From the NCBI GenBank assembly GCA_040307385.1, contig JAWRJQ010000099.1, positions 18,122 to 82,121 of the forward strand: a stretch of DNA of 64,000 bases, read 5' to 3'. How positions within the stretch are numbered: the stretch's first letter is position 1; each line of letters opens with the position of its first letter. A program made the translations under genes and the position numbers. Below the pieces are notes generated by a model, which made no database searches, was not told where the DNA came from, and saw only the letters and a list, made by a program, of their open reading frames with translations. This DNA is from Atopobiaceae bacterium (GTDB lineage Bacteria > Actinomycetota > Coriobacteriia > Coriobacteriales > Atopobiaceae). This document shows positions 2,839 to 57,815 of the stretch, piece after piece.

Positions 2839-3318
2839 GTGTTTCGTGAACTTGTCCGTAAAAAGCAGCAGCTCAACGACGAGCGGTGCCTCGAGATCCT
2901 CGAGCACGGGCTACGCGGCGTGCTTGCGGTTAACGGCGACGGGGGATACCCGTACTGCATGCCGCATAACTACTACTACAACCCCGACGATGGGCGCATC
3001 TACTTCCACTCAGGCAAACGCGGCCACAAGATCGACGCGCTCAAACGCGATGCGCGGGCGTGCTTCACGGTTCTCGATGCGGGCACGCCTGCGGATGACA
3101 GCGACTGGGCGCTCTATTTCAACAGCGTGGTGGTGTTCGGGCGCGTTGAGTTCATCGAAGACCAGGAGGTGGTCGATGAAATGAGCCGCCGCCTCTCATA
3201 TAAGTTCACCGACGACACCGCCTACATCGAGGCGGAGATCGCGCGCGTGGGCAAGGCGACCGCGCTCTTCGCGCTCGTTCCCGAGCAGATGGCCGGCAAG
3301 CGCGTGCGCGAAGACTAG
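2839..3318 (+). CDS. Pyridoxamine 5'-phosphate oxidase / NimA-like flavin-binding protein
   Basis: GVLAV..GYPY and IYFHS..GHKID motifs; GGAGG RBS then GTG. Confidence 0.8.
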   Translation: MFRELVRKKQQLNDERCLEILEHGLRGVLAVNGDGGYPYCMPHNYYYNPDDGRIYFHSGKRGHKIDALKRDARACFTVLDAGTPADDSDWALYFNSVVVFGRVEFIEDQEVVDEMSRRLSYKFTDDTAYIEAEIARVGKATALFALVPEQMAGKRVRED

Positions 3319-3367
3319 CGCTTCTCGCTTGACCGAACCGCTGGCTGAGAGTAGAATTCTTACGCAC

Positions 3368-3454
3368 GCGGGCGTGGCGGAATTGGCAGACGCGTACGGT
3401 TCAGGTCCGTATGGAGGCAACTCCGTGGGGGTTCAAGTCCCTCCGCCCGCACCA
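3368..3454 (+). tRNA. tRNA-Leu(CAG)
   Basis: Cloverleaf with long variable arm, anticodon loop TT-CAG-GT, GTTCAAGTC T-loop, encoded CCA. Confidence 0.97.
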
Positions 3455-3457
3455 TGA

Positions 3458-3498
3458 AAGAGCCCCCTTTTGCCTTTGCGGGCAAAAGGGGTTTTTCT
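3458..3498 (+). terminator. Intrinsic terminator after tRNA-Leu
   Basis: Stem CCCCTTTTGCC/GGCAAAAGGGG followed by a T-run. Confidence 0.85.
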
Positions 3499-3561
3499 TA
3501 CGCTCAGGGTGAGCAGCGGGCGTGGAGCATCCGGATCTGAGGCGACTCGTCCGTCTGCTGA

Positions 3562-3718
3562 ACCAAAAAATCTTCTAATGCTGCAGGGTTTCGGCAGCGG
3601 AGCATGTATCGGCTTTAGAGACTGCATATTATCGGCAAATATGCAGCATTAGATGCATAGAAACTGCTTCCAAGGCGGTCTCGAGCCGAAACCGTGCAGC
3701 ATTAAAGACATTTTTGGT
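3562..3718. repeat. 157-bp inverted-repeat (MITE/REP-like) element, copy 1
   Basis: 34-bp imperfect inverted arms at 3562-3595 and 3685-3718; homologous to the element at 23883-24039. Confidence 0.85.
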
Positions 3719-3774
3719 ACACGCCCCGCGTTCGCGCGGCGATGTTCATGTCTGGGCGATGCAGGAAAAGGGCT

Positions 3775-4650
3775 TCAGGAAAAGGATTCGTGGATCTGCA
3801 CCAGAAATCGTTCTGCAATCGGGCTGAACGCCTGGTGCTTCTTCCACACCAGGTACATGTTGACGGCGAGCACCGGCTCAAGCGGTCGGAAGACGAGCCC
3901 GCTTCCTGCTGCCGTGTCGATAAGATGGTCGAACGTCAGAAGATATCCAAGCCCCTCGCGGACAAACACGCCTCCGTTGTAGGCAAGTCGAAAGGAGCCC
4001 TCAAGGTGCAGGTCATCCATCCGTTCGCCGCACCAGCGGGGGATATCCGCACGCCATGACTGCTCCGAGCAAAACAGCGGAAGACCTACCAGATCATCAA
4101 CGGTAACGCTCGATTCACCTGCCAGCGGGTCTTCGAACGGCATGACCAGCCCGAACACGTCTGCTTCGGGAAACTCGGCAAACTCGTATTTCGATGCATC
4201 CGGTCGCTCGGCCAGCACGGCAAAATCCAGAATGCCCCGGTCCAGCTTTTCGACAACCTGCTCCGTGTCGCCGCTGGTCACGTGATAGCGCATGTGGGGA
4301 TACCGCCCCTTAAACGCTCGGATCTCGTGTGCAAGATAACGAATCTGATATGACTCCGCCAGACCGAGGTAGATGTCGCCTCCGGAGATGTCGTTCATCT
4401 TCTGAAACTCGGCGGATATCTTATCCGCCATCGCCACCAGATCATCCGCGCGCTTTCTGAGCAGGATACCCTCGTCCGTCAGGCTGATGCTGAAGGAATG
4501 CCGCTCAAACAGCTTGTGCCCCAGCTCCTGCTCGAGCGCCTTGACCGTTTTCGACAACGTGGACTGCGACACATGCAGAAGCTCCGCCGCACGCGTCATG
4601 TTCTCTTCGCGGGCGATTGCCAAGAAGTACCGAAGCGACTTGATCTCCAT
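3775..4650 (-). CDS. LysR-family transcriptional regulator
   Basis: N-terminal HTH (LRYFLAIAREENMTRAAELLHVSQSTLSK) plus substrate-binding domain. Confidence 0.95.
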   Translation of the reverse strand: MEIKSLRYFLAIAREENMTRAAELLHVSQSTLSKTVKALEQELGHKLFERHSFSISLTDEGILLRKRADDLVAMADKISAEFQKMNDISGGDIYLGLAESYQIRYLAHEIRAFKGRYPHMRYHVTSGDTEQVVEKLDRGILDFAVLAERPDASKYEFAEFPEADVFGLVMPFEDPLAGESSVTVDDLVGLPLFCSEQSWRADIPRWCGERMDDLHLEGSFRLAYNGGVFVREGLGYLLTFDHLIDTAAGSGLVFRPLEPVLAVNMYLVWKKHQAFSPIAERFLVQIHESFS

Positions 4651-4677
4651 GTGGCGACCTCCGTTGCTGCACGTCAG

Positions 4678-4692
4678 ATCATGAATTTCGAT
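4678..4692. promoter_or_regulatory. Candidate LysR binding box
   Basis: ATC-N9-GAT (T-N11-A) palindrome in the AT-rich divergent intergenic region. Confidence 0.45.
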
Positions 4693-4791
4693 AATAGAAT
4701 AATAGATATTCTAAAATTATATTAGCGAATATCAAAAGGAAGGTGCTATACCTAAGGCATAAAATCGTACACAGAAAGGCGGTATGGCAAG

Positions 4792-5790
4792 ATGGCACAC
4801 GAGGAACTTGCGCTGGTGGAAGAATGGGATAAGACTTTCCCGAAGAGCGATAAGGTGGAGCACCGCAAGGTGACCTTCCACAACCGCTACGGCATCACGC
4901 TGGCGGCCGACCTGTATGTCCCCGCACACGCGAAAAGCAAGCTCCCCGCGCTTGCGGTCAGCGGGCCGTTCGGCGCGGTGAAGGAGCAGTCGTCCGGCCT
5001 GTACGCTCAGGCCATGGCGGAGCGGGGCTTTGTCGCGATCGCCTTCGATCCGTCCTTTACCGGGGAGAGCGGCGGTCAGCCCCGCTACATGGCCTCTCCC
5101 GACATCAATACGGAGGATTTCCAGGCCGCGGTCGACTATCTCTCCACCTGCGAGCTGGCGGACCCGGAGCGGATCGGCATCATCGGCGTCTGCGGCTGGG
5201 GAGGGCTTGCGCTCAACGCCGCAGCGATCGATACCCGCATCAAGGCGACGGTCGTCAGCACCATGTACGATATGGCCCGCGTGAACGCAAACGGCTATTT
5301 CGACAGCGAGAACAGCGAGCAGCAGCGCTACGAAAAGAGGAAGGCGCTGAACGCCCAGAGAACCGCCGATTACAAAACCGGCATGTACCAGCGCGGCGGC
5401 GGTGTGGTCGATCCTCTGCCGGAGGACGCGCCTTCCTTCGTTCAGGACTACTACGACTACTACAAGACCGCACGCGGCTATCATGCGCGGTCCCTCAACT
5501 CCAACGACGGCTGGAATGTGACGGGGTGCATGAGCTTTCTCAACCAGCCGATCCTGCAGTACTCCCATGAAATCCGCAACGCGGTCCTCATCGTGCACGG
5601 CGAGCAGGCGCATTCGCGTTATTTTGCGGAAACCGCCTATGCGAACATGACGGACGGCAACCCCTGCCCCGACAACAAGGAGCTGATGATCATTCCGGGT
5701 GCCGTGCACACCGACCTGTACGACGGCGGGGACGAGGGATATATCCCGTGGGAGAAGCTCGAGGGCTTTTTCAAGACGTATCTCGCATAA
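4792..5790 (+). CDS. Alpha/beta hydrolase (YcjY/dienelactone hydrolase-like)
   Basis: GPFGAVKEQ, nucleophile motif GVCGWGG, GAVHTDLYD. Confidence 0.85.
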   Translation: MAHEELALVEEWDKTFPKSDKVEHRKVTFHNRYGITLAADLYVPAHAKSKLPALAVSGPFGAVKEQSSGLYAQAMAERGFVAIAFDPSFTGESGGQPRYMASPDINTEDFQAAVDYLSTCELADPERIGIIGVCGWGGLALNAAAIDTRIKATVVSTMYDMARVNANGYFDSENSEQQRYEKRKALNAQRTADYKTGMYQRGGGVVDPLPEDAPSFVQDYYDYYKTARGYHARSLNSNDGWNVTGCMSFLNQPILQYSHEIRNAVLIVHGEQAHSRYFAETAYANMTDGNPCPDNKELMIIPGAVHTDLYDGGDEGYIPWEKLEGFFKTYLA

Positions 5791-5810
5791 GGCGGAGAGG
5801 GGTGAGCTTC

Positions 5811-6311
5811 GTGGCGAGGTGTCTGCTTGCAGCGTTGGTCTGCCTGCACCTTCTGCTATCCGGGTGCGCTGCGCAGGGAGAAGTCGAGACCACGCCTATG
5901 ACCTCGCAGGATGAATCCCATGACGAAGCGACGAGCACGAGCGATACGCTGCATGAAAACCAGATACGCGTCTTTGTGGGGGAGGCGTCTTTTGTCGTGA
6001 CGCTAGAGGACAACGAATCCGCGCGGGCCCTCCAGGCGCTGCTCGTCGAAGGAGATATGACGATCGCCGCCTCCAACTATGGCGGTTTTGAAAAAGTCTG
6101 CCCCCTCGGCACGACCCTGCCGAGCAGCGATGAGCAGACCACGACGCAAGCCGGAGACGTGATGCTGTACAGCGGCGATCAGATCGTGTTCTTCTATGAT
6201 TCCAATTCATGGGCCTACACCAGGATCGGACACGTGGACGAGCTGTCTGCCGAAGAGTTGCGTGAGATTCTGGACGGCCCCGAAACGGAGATCACGCTGA
6301 GCATCCATTGA
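5811..6311 (+). CDS. Cyclophilin-like fold lipoprotein
   Basis: Lipobox LSGC; YGGFEK and GDVMLYSGDQIVFFY..YTRIG motifs. Confidence 0.7.
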   Translation: MARCLLAALVCLHLLLSGCAAQGEVETTPMTSQDESHDEATSTSDTLHENQIRVFVGEASFVVTLEDNESARALQALLVEGDMTIAASNYGGFEKVCPLGTTLPSSDEQTTTQAGDVMLYSGDQIVFFYDSNSWAYTRIGHVDELSAEELREILDGPETEITLSIH

Positions 6312-6460
6312 TCGCGAAGCGGTATGAGGCGCCCGCAACGCGCGCCCTATGATTCCCGTCCATGGGGTTTCGGTGTTTTGCCTGATCGTCGCCTTTATGA
6401 GGCATGTAGTGCGCCAGCATCGTATGCAGGGCCAGCATGGAGCCGCCGAAGGGAGCCTCT

Positions 6461-6913
6461 ATGAACGGATCGGTGAAACGGGTCGTTGCCACCGCCATCA
6501 TCGTCCTGCTCTGCGCCGGAGCGTTCATCGCGGGTTTCCTGAGCCCGCAACGTACGCGCGGGGTCGAGACGGCCCGGTACATGTCGGAGAACGTCGAGGT
6601 CGTCAGCATCTCCAAAGACTCATACGAGATCGCCGACGATGGCACCGTGCTCATCTTTCTCAGCTACAGATTGAGGAACACCGGCGATGAGGCGCTCTGC
6701 GTGTCCGTAGGCGGCATCTTCCGCACCGAGAAAGCAGCCGGGTTCCTAGAAGAGGAACTGCTGATCGCGGATGAGCCGTATGTGCTTGAACCGGGGGAGG
6801 ACACCTGGATCTCCGTCGTGCTTTCGGGACGCAACGGAGCCAACCCCACGATGCCGGACAGGTTGCCGCCCGACCCCTATGTGGTCGAATGCGATTCAAG
6901 CGCCGCGGCGTAG
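6461..6913 (+). CDS. Hypothetical membrane-anchored or secreted protein
   Basis: GGGAG RBS; N-terminal hydrophobic helix. Confidence 0.55.
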   Translation: MNGSVKRVVATAIIVLLCAGAFIAGFLSPQRTRGVETARYMSENVEVVSISKDSYEIADDGTVLIFLSYRLRNTGDEALCVSVGGIFRTEKAAGFLEEELLIADEPYVLEPGEDTWISVVLSGRNGANPTMPDRLPPDPYVVECDSSAAA

Positions 6914-23701: not shown

Positions 23702-23778
<77 letters not shown>

Positions 23779-23788
23779 GATATTCCGA

Positions 23789-23816
23789 GGTCAGCCCTGT
23801 GCGGCTGGCCTTTTTT
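23789..23816 (+). terminator. Intrinsic terminator after tRNA-Asp
   Basis: GGTCAGCC/GGCTGGCC stem followed by T6. Confidence 0.85.
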
Positions 23817-23882
23817 GTTTCTCTTTCGCAGTTCCCGATGGGGGTTGTTCCCCGGTTGGAGCAAGGCTGCGGCATGCCGCGT

Positions 23883-24039
23883 ACCAAAAATGTCTCTAAT
23901 GCTGCACGGTTTCGGGCATCGGGTACGTATCGCGGCGAACGGATGCATATTTTTTGAGGTGTATGCCGTATTTCTGCATATAAATGCGTCCATGGAGGGC
24001 GTCGGATCGAAACCGTGCAGCATTAGAGACATTTTGTGT
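23883..24039. repeat. 157-bp inverted-repeat element, copy 2
   Basis: Perfect 28-bp inverted arms AAAATGTCTCTAATGCTGCACGGTTTCG at 23887-23914 and 24008-24035. Confidence 0.9.
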
Positions 24040-24288
24040 TCTAAGCATCGCTGCAGCAAACAGGCTGCTGGGGACCGCAGCCCCGCAGGGGGAGTGTTCC
24101 CGCGTGGAACATATAAAACCCGCTTACTTATGTTAGGATGATAGCGTCTACGAGGTGAAACGATGGCTCTGCTCCGAGCTTCGCCCGTAGATTCGCGCCT
24201 TCCCCACTCTGCTTCCGAAGGCCCTCATCGATAGCTCTGCAATCACGTGCTGTCTGCGGCGCCTTATCGAAACGGAGGTCCATTCTGT

Positions 24289-28540: not shown

Positions 28541-28631
28541 CTTTCGCATAATGTCAATGGCGAGAAAACCGCGCGCATCTGACCTGCGGCTCCTTGAAGC
28601 GCCTCGCGCGTACACGCACATTATGCGAAAG
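28541..28631. repeat. 91-bp element with perfect 14-bp inverted ends
   Basis: CTTTCGCATAATGT at 28541-28554 and ACATTATGCGAAAG at 28618-28631. Confidence 0.75.
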
Positions 28632-57620: not shown

Positions 57621-57815
57621 GTGTCACGCCGATTTACGCAAATGGCATAATTATCCGTTTTTCTGCTGATTTTGGGGCTCGATTCTCCATCGGACGAAAA
57701 CCTGCCCTCCATTTGCGCAGGTCAGACAGCCTGTGAATGCGACCCCGTTTTTTCCGGTGCCGTTTTTCGGCAGAAAAACGGAAAATTATGCCATTCCCGC
57801 GTGTCGGCGTGACAC
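57621..57815. repeat. 195-bp element with 49-bp imperfect inverted arms
   Basis: Arms at 57621-57669 and 57767-57815 differ in one 8-nt block and two single bases. Confidence 0.85.

What the first reader, a model, noticed from the sequence alone, without database searches (positions are those of the whole stretch)
3562..3718. 157-bp symmetric element family with fixed geometry, copy 1 (after tRNA-Leu)
Seen: 34-bp inverted arms (ACCAAAAA..CTAATGCTGCA(C/G)GGTTTCGG). The distance from the left-arm start to the right-arm CGAAACC is 125 nt here and also 125 nt in the copy at 23883. In all four arms an (A/C)TGCA motif follows exactly 28 nt inside the arm, while the rest of the interior has diverged. 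This copy also has an internal partial arm (ATGCAGCATTAGA). Inference: conserved spacing with a diverged interior suggests protein-recognised sites, such as a non-autonomous mobile element or recombination site array, rather than a simple duplication. No transposase is in the window.
Basis: partly seen in the sequence, partly recalled or inferred. Interest (0 to 1): 0.62.

Follow-up and report, generated by a model that had tools for sequence, protein, structure and literature searches.

The report
Palindromic repeat family behind tRNA genes
A roughly 160-bp imperfect-palindrome DNA repeat, present in about 6-10 copies in one rumen Atopobiaceae species, sits just past the terminator of tRNA genes; it is most likely a small non-autonomous mobile element (MITE-like), which is an ordinary kind of element in an unusual position.

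Summary
Window 3560-3720 and 23881-24041 are two copies of one element. Each has 34-41-nt inverted arms, a near-invariant 19-nt arm core (TAATGCTGCA[C/G]GGTT[T/C]CGG), TGCA at +47 from each core, and a 129-bp core-to-core span.

The family is larger than two copies. A third sequenced copy lies behind tRNA-Phe on another contig of the same species. A fourth has the same 129-bp geometry. Contig depth in rumen metagenomes indicates about 6-10 elements per genome.

All three sequenced copies lie 88-107 nt past a tRNA gene (Leu, Asp, Phe), beyond its intrinsic terminator, and in the same orientation.

The elements are AT-rich and non-coding, and match no Rfam family, plasmid or phage. Between strains they vary as freely as their flanks, cores included. 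That argues against an in-place host function and for a selfish, MITE-like repeat.

Mobility is not shown. I found no target-site duplication, no empty site within the species and no partner transposase. A related species has a different palindromic repeat at the same tRNA-Leu site.

Verdict: a new, low-copy, species-restricted member of the bacterial palindromic intergenic repeat class. The tRNA-downstream bias rests on n=3 but is statistically unlikely by chance.

The parts
3368..3454 (+). tRNA-Leu(CAG), the gene upstream of copy 1
   Evidence: ARAGORN; Rfam tRNA, 50.7 bits
3464..3498 (+). Intrinsic terminator of tRNA-Leu (12-pair stem plus T run). Copy 1 starts about 60 nt after it.
3560..3720 (+). 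Copy 1 (c1), complete element of 161 bp counted from G[A/T]ACC to its mirror. GC is 45% against 63% for the window.
3560..3595 (+). c1 tRNA-proximal arm. The conserved core is 3576-3594 (TAATGCTGCAGGGTTTCGG). The outer part is diverged.
3623..3657 (.). c1 central region. TGCA lies at 3623-3626 and 3654-3657, symmetric about 3640. An inner palindrome is TGCATATT...AATATGCA. A 12-nt internal partial arm lies at 3642-3653.
3685..3720 (-). c1 tRNA-distal arm (core 3686-3704)
3775..6913 (.). LysR / alpha-beta hydrolase / cyclophilin-like / 158-aa block that abuts copy 1. It is absent from the syntenic locus of a related species, so it is an inserted accessory block.
23702..23778 (+). tRNA-Asp(GTC), the gene upstream of copy 2
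23787..23819 (+). Intrinsic terminator of tRNA-Asp
23881..24041 (+). Copy 2 (c2), complete element of 161 bp with 28-nt perfect inner arms. Cores are 23897-23915 and 24007-24025; TGCA lies at 23944-23947 and 23975-23978.

Best explanation
The finding is one copy of a low-copy family of about 160-bp imperfect-palindrome repeats. The family has roughly 6-10 elements per genome and was found only in one rumen Atopobiaceae species. It is best read as a non-autonomous, MITE-like element in the style of Correia or ERIC.

Each element has two inverted arms. The 19-nt arm core and a subterminal TGCA motif 28 nt further in would be the sites recognised by a trans-acting transposase or recombinase that has not been found. 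The interior is free to drift.

**Shown:**
- the repeat family and its anatomy;
- AT-richness and lack of coding capacity;
- position 88-107 nt downstream of three different tRNA genes, beyond their terminators, in one orientation;
- neutral-looking variation between strains.

**Inferred:**
- that copies spread by transposition or recombination;
- that conservation of the cores reflects selection at the moment of mobilisation rather than a function in place;
- that the tRNA-downstream position reflects target preference or preferential survival in a safe, highly transcribed but gene-free spot.
For: **Family and anatomy.**
- Inverted arms are far beyond chance.
- A third copy lies behind tRNA-Phe on a different contig of the same species (L121). 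A fourth copy has an identical 91-nt interior length. The interior of a fifth copy appears as a loose end.
- Other contigs carrying the arm have the same depth as the flanks. Summed arm depth is 14x (c1 distal arm) and 17-26x (c2 proximal arm) the flank depth in four runs.
- Cores are 17-19/19 identical, against interiors at 41-54%.

**Not a host site or an RNA.**
- Strain-level polymorphism is as dense in the elements as in the flanks, about 2.5% against 2.8% of sites. It includes three core positions (24020, L121:6388, L121:6497) and 1-nt and 13-nt indels.
- Arm mismatches are not compensated. c1 has 6 arm mismatches. In c3 an A-run is replaced by a T-run on one arm only.
- GC is 45-49% against 63% for the window. 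There is no Rfam match and no promoter consensus.

**Supporting context.**
- A second, unrelated palindromic repeat in the window (57621-57815) is high-copy at 50-80x and also lies about 54 nt past a terminator. The genome therefore does carry MITE-like families.
- The orthologous tRNA-Leu site of a related species lacks this element.
Against: - No target-site duplication at any boundary offset.
- No empty site or presence/absence polymorphism in the 12 runs laid on the three loci, or in four assemblies.
- No longer copy and no transposase bearing these arms in the JGI metagenome scan (3 loci, all short elements), viral contigs, or plasmid and phage collections.
- The most conserved part is the inner 19 nt of the arm, not the extreme tips. 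That is less typical of transposon ends.
- Near-constant length despite about 50% interior divergence hints at a spacing constraint that neutral decay would not keep.
- tRNA-downstream, single-orientation placement is not a described habit of bacterial MITEs. A 2024 review (PMC10969869) does not mention tRNA at all.
Confidence: 0.52

Rival explanations
1. The element is a host-domesticated protein-binding module. It would consist of two inverted 19-nt sites 129 bp apart plus central TGCATA half-sites, kept downstream of very highly transcribed tRNA genes. Possible roles are a roadblock or insulator, a nucleoid-protein or gyrase site, or a back-up bidirectional terminator, comparable to what is proposed for REP/BIME and for the IHF site of Correia elements.
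For: - All three sequenced copies follow tRNA terminators in one orientation.
- The cores and the TGCA motif are conserved in all six half-elements while the sequence between them has drifted.
- The core-to-core span is 129/129/128/129 bp.
- Two copies sit between convergent transcription units: tRNA against LysR, and tRNA against TetR.
Against: - Between strains the cores mutate as often as the flanks, with 3 polymorphic core sites in 114 nt.
- The spacing changes by 1-2 nt in strains.
- Only some tRNA loci have the element. tRNA-Thr has none, and tRNA-Pro has an unrelated single-copy palindrome.
- The family was found in one species only.
Confidence: 0.15
2. The element is the tRNA-proximal end, or a recombination or landing site, of integrative gene cassettes that accrete behind tRNA genes. 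Accessory blocks would be joined to the chromosome at or next to the element by a trans-acting site-specific recombinase.
For: - Copy 1 lies exactly between tRNA-Leu and a 3.1-kb LysR-hydrolase block. That block is absent from the syntenic locus of a related species and is found as a portable cassette in unrelated contigs.
- In one low-coverage run, a contig follows the locus through the proximal arm and then continues into unrelated DNA.
- The orientation relative to the tRNA is constant.
Against: - There is no integrase or recombinase near any copy.
- There is no direct repeat of a tRNA 3' end.
- There is no second arm or element at the far end of the LysR block.
- Copy 3 is flanked by ordinary-looking genes that are identical in all assemblies.
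- The X20 junction may be an assembly chimera at 5x depth.
Confidence: 0.13
3. The element encodes or forms a structured RNA, either a long hairpin sRNA or a 3' tail element of the tRNA transcript.
For: - Predicted folds are very stable, at -62 to -73 kcal/mol with z of -4.4 to -8.8 against shuffles, on both strands.
- The elements have a polarity shared by the copies.
Against: - The stability comes from the arms alone. Interior folds differ between copies.
- Arm differences are not compensatory.
- Strong intrinsic terminators separate the element from the tRNA.
- There is no promoter consensus and no Rfam hit even at E<=5.
- No RNA run was available.
Confidence: 0.05

Closest known systems
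Correia repeat-enclosed elements (CREE) of Neisseria
   Same: - Non-coding intergenic element of about 105-157 bp (size from my own knowledge).
- Terminal inverted repeats of about 26 bp or more.
- A protein-binding site in the centre, and subtypes that share ends but differ inside.
- No transposase of its own (review PMC10969869).
   Different: - Correia has more than 100 copies, a TA target duplication, documented strain-to-strain mobility and promoters.
- This family has roughly 6-10 copies, no duplication and no observed mobility.
- It sits behind tRNA terminators, and there is no sequence similarity.
ERIC / IRU elements of Enterobacteriaceae
   Same: - An imperfect palindrome of a little over 100 bp (ERIC is 127 bp).
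- Strictly extragenic, often at the 3' ends of transcription units.
- Variable copy number between species.
- No known transposase, and mobility inferred rather than shown.
   Different: - ERIC is usually transcribed as part of mRNAs and is conserved across genera.
- This family lies beyond terminators, has a strong arm-versus-interior conservation contrast, and was found in one species only.
REP/BIME and REPIN elements with RAYT (Y1) transposases
   Same: - Extragenic palindromes located after genes.
- Recognised by proteins (gyrase, IHF, RAYT).
   Different: - REPs are 20-40-nt GC-rich hairpins present in hundreds of copies with a cognate RAYT gene.
- This element is 160 bp, AT-rich, has 34-nt arms 89-91 nt apart, and no Y1 gene is known nearby.
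Orientation-specific elements that home to sites behind conserved genes (Tn7-like elements at attTn7 or tRNA genes)
   Same: - Insertion downstream of a conserved, highly expressed gene in a single orientation.
- Several transposase-binding sites within each end, giving the element polarity.
   Different: - Tn7-like elements insert at a fixed distance from one specific target, make 5-bp duplications and have much longer ends with TGT...ACA termini.
- Here three different tRNAs are involved, distances vary (88-107 nt), and no duplication is seen.
- This is a resemblance in behaviour only and was not tested as membership.

Membership tests
MITE (miniature inverted-repeat transposable element) | Terminal inverted repeats of at least 10-15 bp | tested here: met
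   Arms are 34-41 nt and 81-85% complementary. The 20-mer occurs 4 times against 0.01 expected.
MITE (miniature inverted-repeat transposable element) | Small (50-800 bp), with no coding capacity of its own | tested here: met
   The element is 160-161 bp. Frames are interrupted or not shared between copies. No called protein overlaps it in the 5.8-billion-protein collection.
MITE (miniature inverted-repeat transposable element) | Multiple dispersed copies in one genome | tested here: met
   There are 3 sequenced loci, a 4th complete copy and the interior of a 5th. Arm depth is 14-26x the flank depth.
MITE (miniature inverted-repeat transposable element) | Target-site duplication of 2-10 bp flanking the element | tested here: not met
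   A scan of all boundary offsets from -4 to +7 and lengths 2-10 found nothing consistent in the three copies. Only the ambiguous G[A/T]AC could be read as a duplication, and it can equally be read as the arm tip.
MITE (miniature inverted-repeat transposable element) | Evidence of mobility: empty sites or presence/absence between strains | tested here: inconclusive
   All three loci are occupied in every run and assembly of the species examined. The element is absent from the orthologous tRNA-Leu site of a related species (73% aa identity), but the intergenic DNA there is not alignable.
MITE (miniature inverted-repeat transposable element) | A cognate autonomous IS or transposase with matching inverted repeats | not testable with these tools
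None was found in the JGI metagenome scan, viral contigs, plasmids or phages.
tRNA-gene integrative island end (attL/attR) | Direct repeat of the tRNA 3' segment and an adjacent integrase | tested here: not met
   There is no 16-mer (up to 1 mismatch) of any tRNA elsewhere in the window. There is no 9-mer or longer of the tRNA downstream of c2 or c3. No integrase domain occurs in the neighbouring genes.
tRNA-end-copying hairpin repeats noted earlier in this scan (other phyla) | Arms or tails made of sense and antisense copies of the neighbouring tRNA's own 3' end | tested here: not met
   The arms are the same behind tRNA-Leu, tRNA-Asp and tRNA-Phe and match none of them. The only match is a 10-mer of the tRNA-Leu 5' end in the c1 spacer, which is near chance level.
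Any Rfam RNA family | Covariance-model match | tested here: not met
   Nothing reached the gathering threshold. At E<=5 only sub-threshold noise appeared.

The most novel reading that the evidence does not exclude
The family is a tRNA-terminator-homing, orientation-specific non-autonomous element. Its two 19-nt cores and subterminal TGCA sites, held at a fixed 129-bp geometry, would be bound by an undescribed trans-acting recombinase or transposase. That enzyme would place the element about 90-110 nt behind tRNA genes without a target duplication. The element might then serve as the docking point for accessory gene blocks such as the LysR cassette. This would make it a bacterial counterpart of the tRNA-gene-targeting elements known from eukaryotes.
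Probability: 0.15. Interest if true: 0.65.

Novelty: new member of a known kind. Interest (0 to 1): 0.36.

Why it matters
As a MITE-like repeat, this adds a small, species-restricted family in a little-studied rumen lineage, which is of modest interest.

The feature worth following is position. Three of three sequenced copies lie just beyond the terminators of three different tRNA genes, in one orientation. If a genome-wide census confirms that, it would be a rare bacterial case of tRNA-locus targeting by a short palindromic element that carries no tRNA-derived sequence. It would also give a handle (a 19-nt core) for fishing out the protein responsible.

On the practical side, the arms break short-read assemblies of this species next to tRNA genes.

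Tried and rejected
- **Wasted scan.** Its 119 hits are chance matches in unrelated phyla. None has a second arm or scores above noise with the element profile.
- **Viral contigs.** No arm core was found. The X20 junction 30-mer was not found either.
- **Plasmids and phages.** blastn in 'distant' mode gave no match.
- **Protein route to other copies.** I translated the open frame through copy 2 (both arms are in frame, giving ...KMSLMLHGFG...KPCSIRDI...) and searched the protein collection. No candidate was found.
- **Walking out of the window.** Exact-protein look-ups returned only short Logan contigs, or nothing.
- **Target-site duplication scan.** Negative.
- **tRNA-fragment repeats and att-like direct repeats.** Negative.
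- **Rfam.** Negative at the gathering threshold and at permissive thresholds.
- **RNA evidence.** No run of known RNA type holds the locus.
- **Homology beyond the arms.** Only a weak 12-nt resemblance between the c1 and c3 distal flanks, judged not significant.
- **Purifying selection between strains.** Rejected, because polymorphism density is the same inside and outside the elements.
- **Profile scores as evidence of polarity.** Forward-versus-reverse scores are inflated, because the profile was built from the same copies. I rely on the pairwise blastn instead.

Full report
**1. What is in the sequence**

Copy 1 (c1) spans window 3560-3720 and copy 2 (c2) spans 23881-24041. The repeat finder gives arms of 37 nt (81% complementary) for c1 and 41 nt (85%; inner 28 nt perfect) for c2. 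The 20-mer CTAATGCTGCASGGTTTCGG occurs four times with up to 3 mismatches, against 0.01 expected from shuffles.

- The distance from arm start to CGAAACC is 125 nt in both copies.
- TGCA lies 47 nt from the start of each core, which is 28 nt inside the arm.
- c1 has a 12-nt internal partial arm at 3642-3653.

The arms extend two bases further out than reported, as G[A/T]ACC.

**2. Setting**

Both copies follow a tRNA gene and its intrinsic terminator.
- c1: tRNA-Leu(CAG) 3368-3454, terminator 3464-3498, element at 3560.
- c2: tRNA-Asp(GTC) 23702-23778, terminator 23787-23819, element at 23881.

Downstream of c1 is the 3' end of a convergent LysR gene. Downstream of c2 is an ABC-transporter operon. 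Earlier notes of this scan identify the organism as a rumen Atopobiaceae bacterium. Consistent with that, the locus is held by bovine and sheep gut metagenomes.

**3. More copies**

A scan of JGI metagenomes with a 22-nt degenerate core pattern returned three loci from one sample. Two are the orthologues of c1 and c2 in another strain (L120, L122). The third (L121:6371-6530) is a new copy, c3. It again lies behind a tRNA, tRNA-Phe(GAA) at L121:6618-6693 on the minus strand, beyond its terminator and 88 nt from the tRNA end.

Further copies show up in the run data:
- A 669-nt contig in run X20 carries a fourth complete copy whose two arms enclose the same 91-nt interior.
- A loose end in two runs shows the distal-type interior of a fifth copy.

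Contigs of four rumen runs were laid on the loci. Other contigs carrying the arm have the same depth as the unique flanks. Summed arm depth is 14x (c1 distal arm) and 17-26x (c2 proximal arm) the flank depth. Contigs overlap by k-1 at repeat borders, so this may overcount by up to twofold. My estimate is roughly 6-10 elements per genome.

No other copy or solo arm exists in the roughly 130 kb of this species that I held.

**4. Anatomy of the family**

The six half-elements were aligned without gaps. They share three features:
- the tip G[A/T]ACC;
- a loosely kept A-run (AAAATGTCT);
- an almost invariant 19-nt core TAATGCTGCA[C/G]GGTT[T/C]CGG, followed exactly 28 nt further in by TGCA.

Identity between copies differs sharply by region:

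| Region | Identity between copies |
|---|---|
| Cores | 17-19 of 19 |
| Outer arms | 7-12 of 16 |
| Interiors | 41-54% |

The core-to-core span is 129, 129 and 128 bp, and 129 bp in the fourth copy.

The interior has polarity. Pairwise blastn aligns whole elements plus/plus (c1-c2 72% over 156 nt; c1-c3 76% over 172 nt). Plus/minus alignments cover only the arms or score much lower. Proximal-specific blocks are GTATCG and TGCATATT. A distal-specific block is TATGCA.

All three sequenced copies have the same orientation relative to the upstream tRNA. That has a 1-in-4 chance by itself.

tRNA adjacency of 3 out of 3 copies is far less likely by chance. About 4 of roughly 55 intergenic regions in this window are tRNA-downstream. 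That gives on the order of 1e-4 for three independent hits. This is my own rough estimate.

The elements have 45-49% GC in a 63% GC window.

**5. Tests of function**

*RNA.* Folds are very stable on both strands (z of -4.4 to -8.8). The stability is due to the arms, and the interior structures differ between copies. Arm differences are not compensated: c1 has six arm mismatches, and c3 has its A-run replaced by a T-run on one arm only. Strong terminators precede the elements, and no promoter consensus lies in them. Rfam gives nothing. No RNA run was available.

*Host function in place.* I tabulated strain polymorphisms from twelve runs and four assemblies. Substitutions and indels are as dense inside the elements as in the flanking spacers (about 2.5% against 2.8% of positions). 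They include three core positions (24020, L121:6388, L121:6497), 1-nt indels that change the spacing of c2, and a 13-nt tandem duplication across the proximal tip of c3. There is therefore no sign of purifying selection on resident copies. Conservation of the cores between copies is better explained by selection at the time of copying, which is the transposon-end logic.

*Mobility.*
- No target-site duplication was found at any boundary offset.
- No empty site was seen in any run.
- All assemblies of the species carry c1 and c3.
- A related species (PNPOx neighbour 73% identical, same synteny) lacks the element behind its tRNA-Leu. Instead it carries a different 62-nt-period palindromic repeat and an inverted T-arm fragment. 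It also lacks the LysR block.

*Integrative-island reading.* There is no integrase and no tRNA-fragment direct repeat.

*tRNA-end-copying hairpin families.* Earlier notes of this scan describe such families in other phyla. The arms here are the same behind three different tRNAs and contain no tRNA-derived sequence, so this is not that kind of element.

**6. Context that favours a selfish repeat**

A second, unrelated palindromic element in the window (57621-57815, 49-nt arms) is high-copy at 50-80x flank depth. It also lies about 54 nt past a terminator, in this case of a protein gene. The palindrome behind tRNA-Pro is single-copy. The genome thus harbours at least two MITE-like families that end up shortly after terminators.

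**7. Conclusion**

The best reading (about 0.5) is a new, low-copy, species-restricted MITE-like palindromic repeat. Its 19-nt cores and subterminal TGCA motifs would be the recognition sites of an unidentified trans-acting enzyme. It shows a notable, still thinly sampled, preference for the region just beyond tRNA terminators.

The rivals are:
- a domesticated protein-binding module (about 0.15);
- a docking or recombination site for accessory blocks (about 0.13);
- a structured RNA (about 0.05).

Compared with known families, it resembles Correia and ERIC elements in size and architecture (review PMC10969869). It differs in copy number, in the absence of a target duplication, and in its position. 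That review of prokaryotic MITEs does not mention tRNA-associated insertion at all.

**8. Unresolved**

In run X20 (about 5x depth) a 989-nt contig matches the window from 3200 through the proximal arm of c1 to 3602. It then continues for at least 316 nt into unrelated sequence, while a half-depth contig carries the normal interior. The junction 30-mer is not in any sequence I hold or in viral contigs. This may be a chimera, a nested insertion, or alternative DNA joined at the arm. If it is the last of these, the docking-site reading would gain weight.

Noticed in passing
window 57621-57815: An unrelated 195-bp palindromic element (49-nt arms, 84% complementary) lies about 54 nt past a protein-gene terminator. 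Its arm depth is 50-80x the flank depth in three rumen runs. It is therefore a high-copy MITE-like family in this species, with perhaps 25-40 elements.
   Followed up: partly
window 28541-28631: A palindrome lies behind tRNA-Pro(CGG), with 14-nt perfect arms CTTTCGCATAATGT 63 nt apart. It is single-copy in two of three runs, so it is not a repeat family like the other two.
   Followed up: partly
window 3775-6913 (compare L129:3557-4045 and L132): The LysR / alpha-beta hydrolase / cyclophilin-like / 158-aa block is an insertion between tRNA-Leu and the PAP2 gene, relative to a syntenic related species. The same cassette (71-78% aa identity) occurs in unrelated contigs next to other genes, so it looks like a portable regulator-enzyme cassette.
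   Followed up: partly
L129:3774-3899 and 3985-3997: A related Atopobiaceae species has a different repeat behind its tRNA-Leu. The repeat consists of two 62-nt-period units rich in the palindrome TTCGCGAACGCGA, each ending in ACGGTT[T/C]C, which is the same 8-mer as in the arm core here. It is followed by an inverted 13-nt copy of the tRNA T-arm.
   Followed up: partly
L121:6509-6535: A 13-nt tandem duplication (AAATGGTTCATGG x2) spans the proximal tip of copy 3. It is polymorphic: absent in run X1 and present in X4, X5, X9, X14 and the JGI contig.
   Followed up: yes
window 3200-3602 in run X20: A low-depth contig leaves copy 1 right after the proximal arm (after 3602) and runs into at least 316 nt of unknown sequence beginning GGCTACGTCCCTAAAGTGGTGTAAAAGACG. 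It is either a chimera or a structural variant.
   Followed up: partly
window 23784-23818 and L121:6572-6609: The terminators of tRNA-Asp and tRNA-Phe share their stem flanks (CGAGGTCA[G/A]CC ... GG[C/T]TGGCCTTTTTT) although their loops differ. The tRNA-Leu terminator is unrelated.
   Followed up: no
window 3516-3525: GCGGGCGTGG in the spacer before copy 1 is identical to nucleotides 1-10 of tRNA-Leu. Copies 2 and 3 have no counterpart, so this is probably chance.
   Followed up: yes
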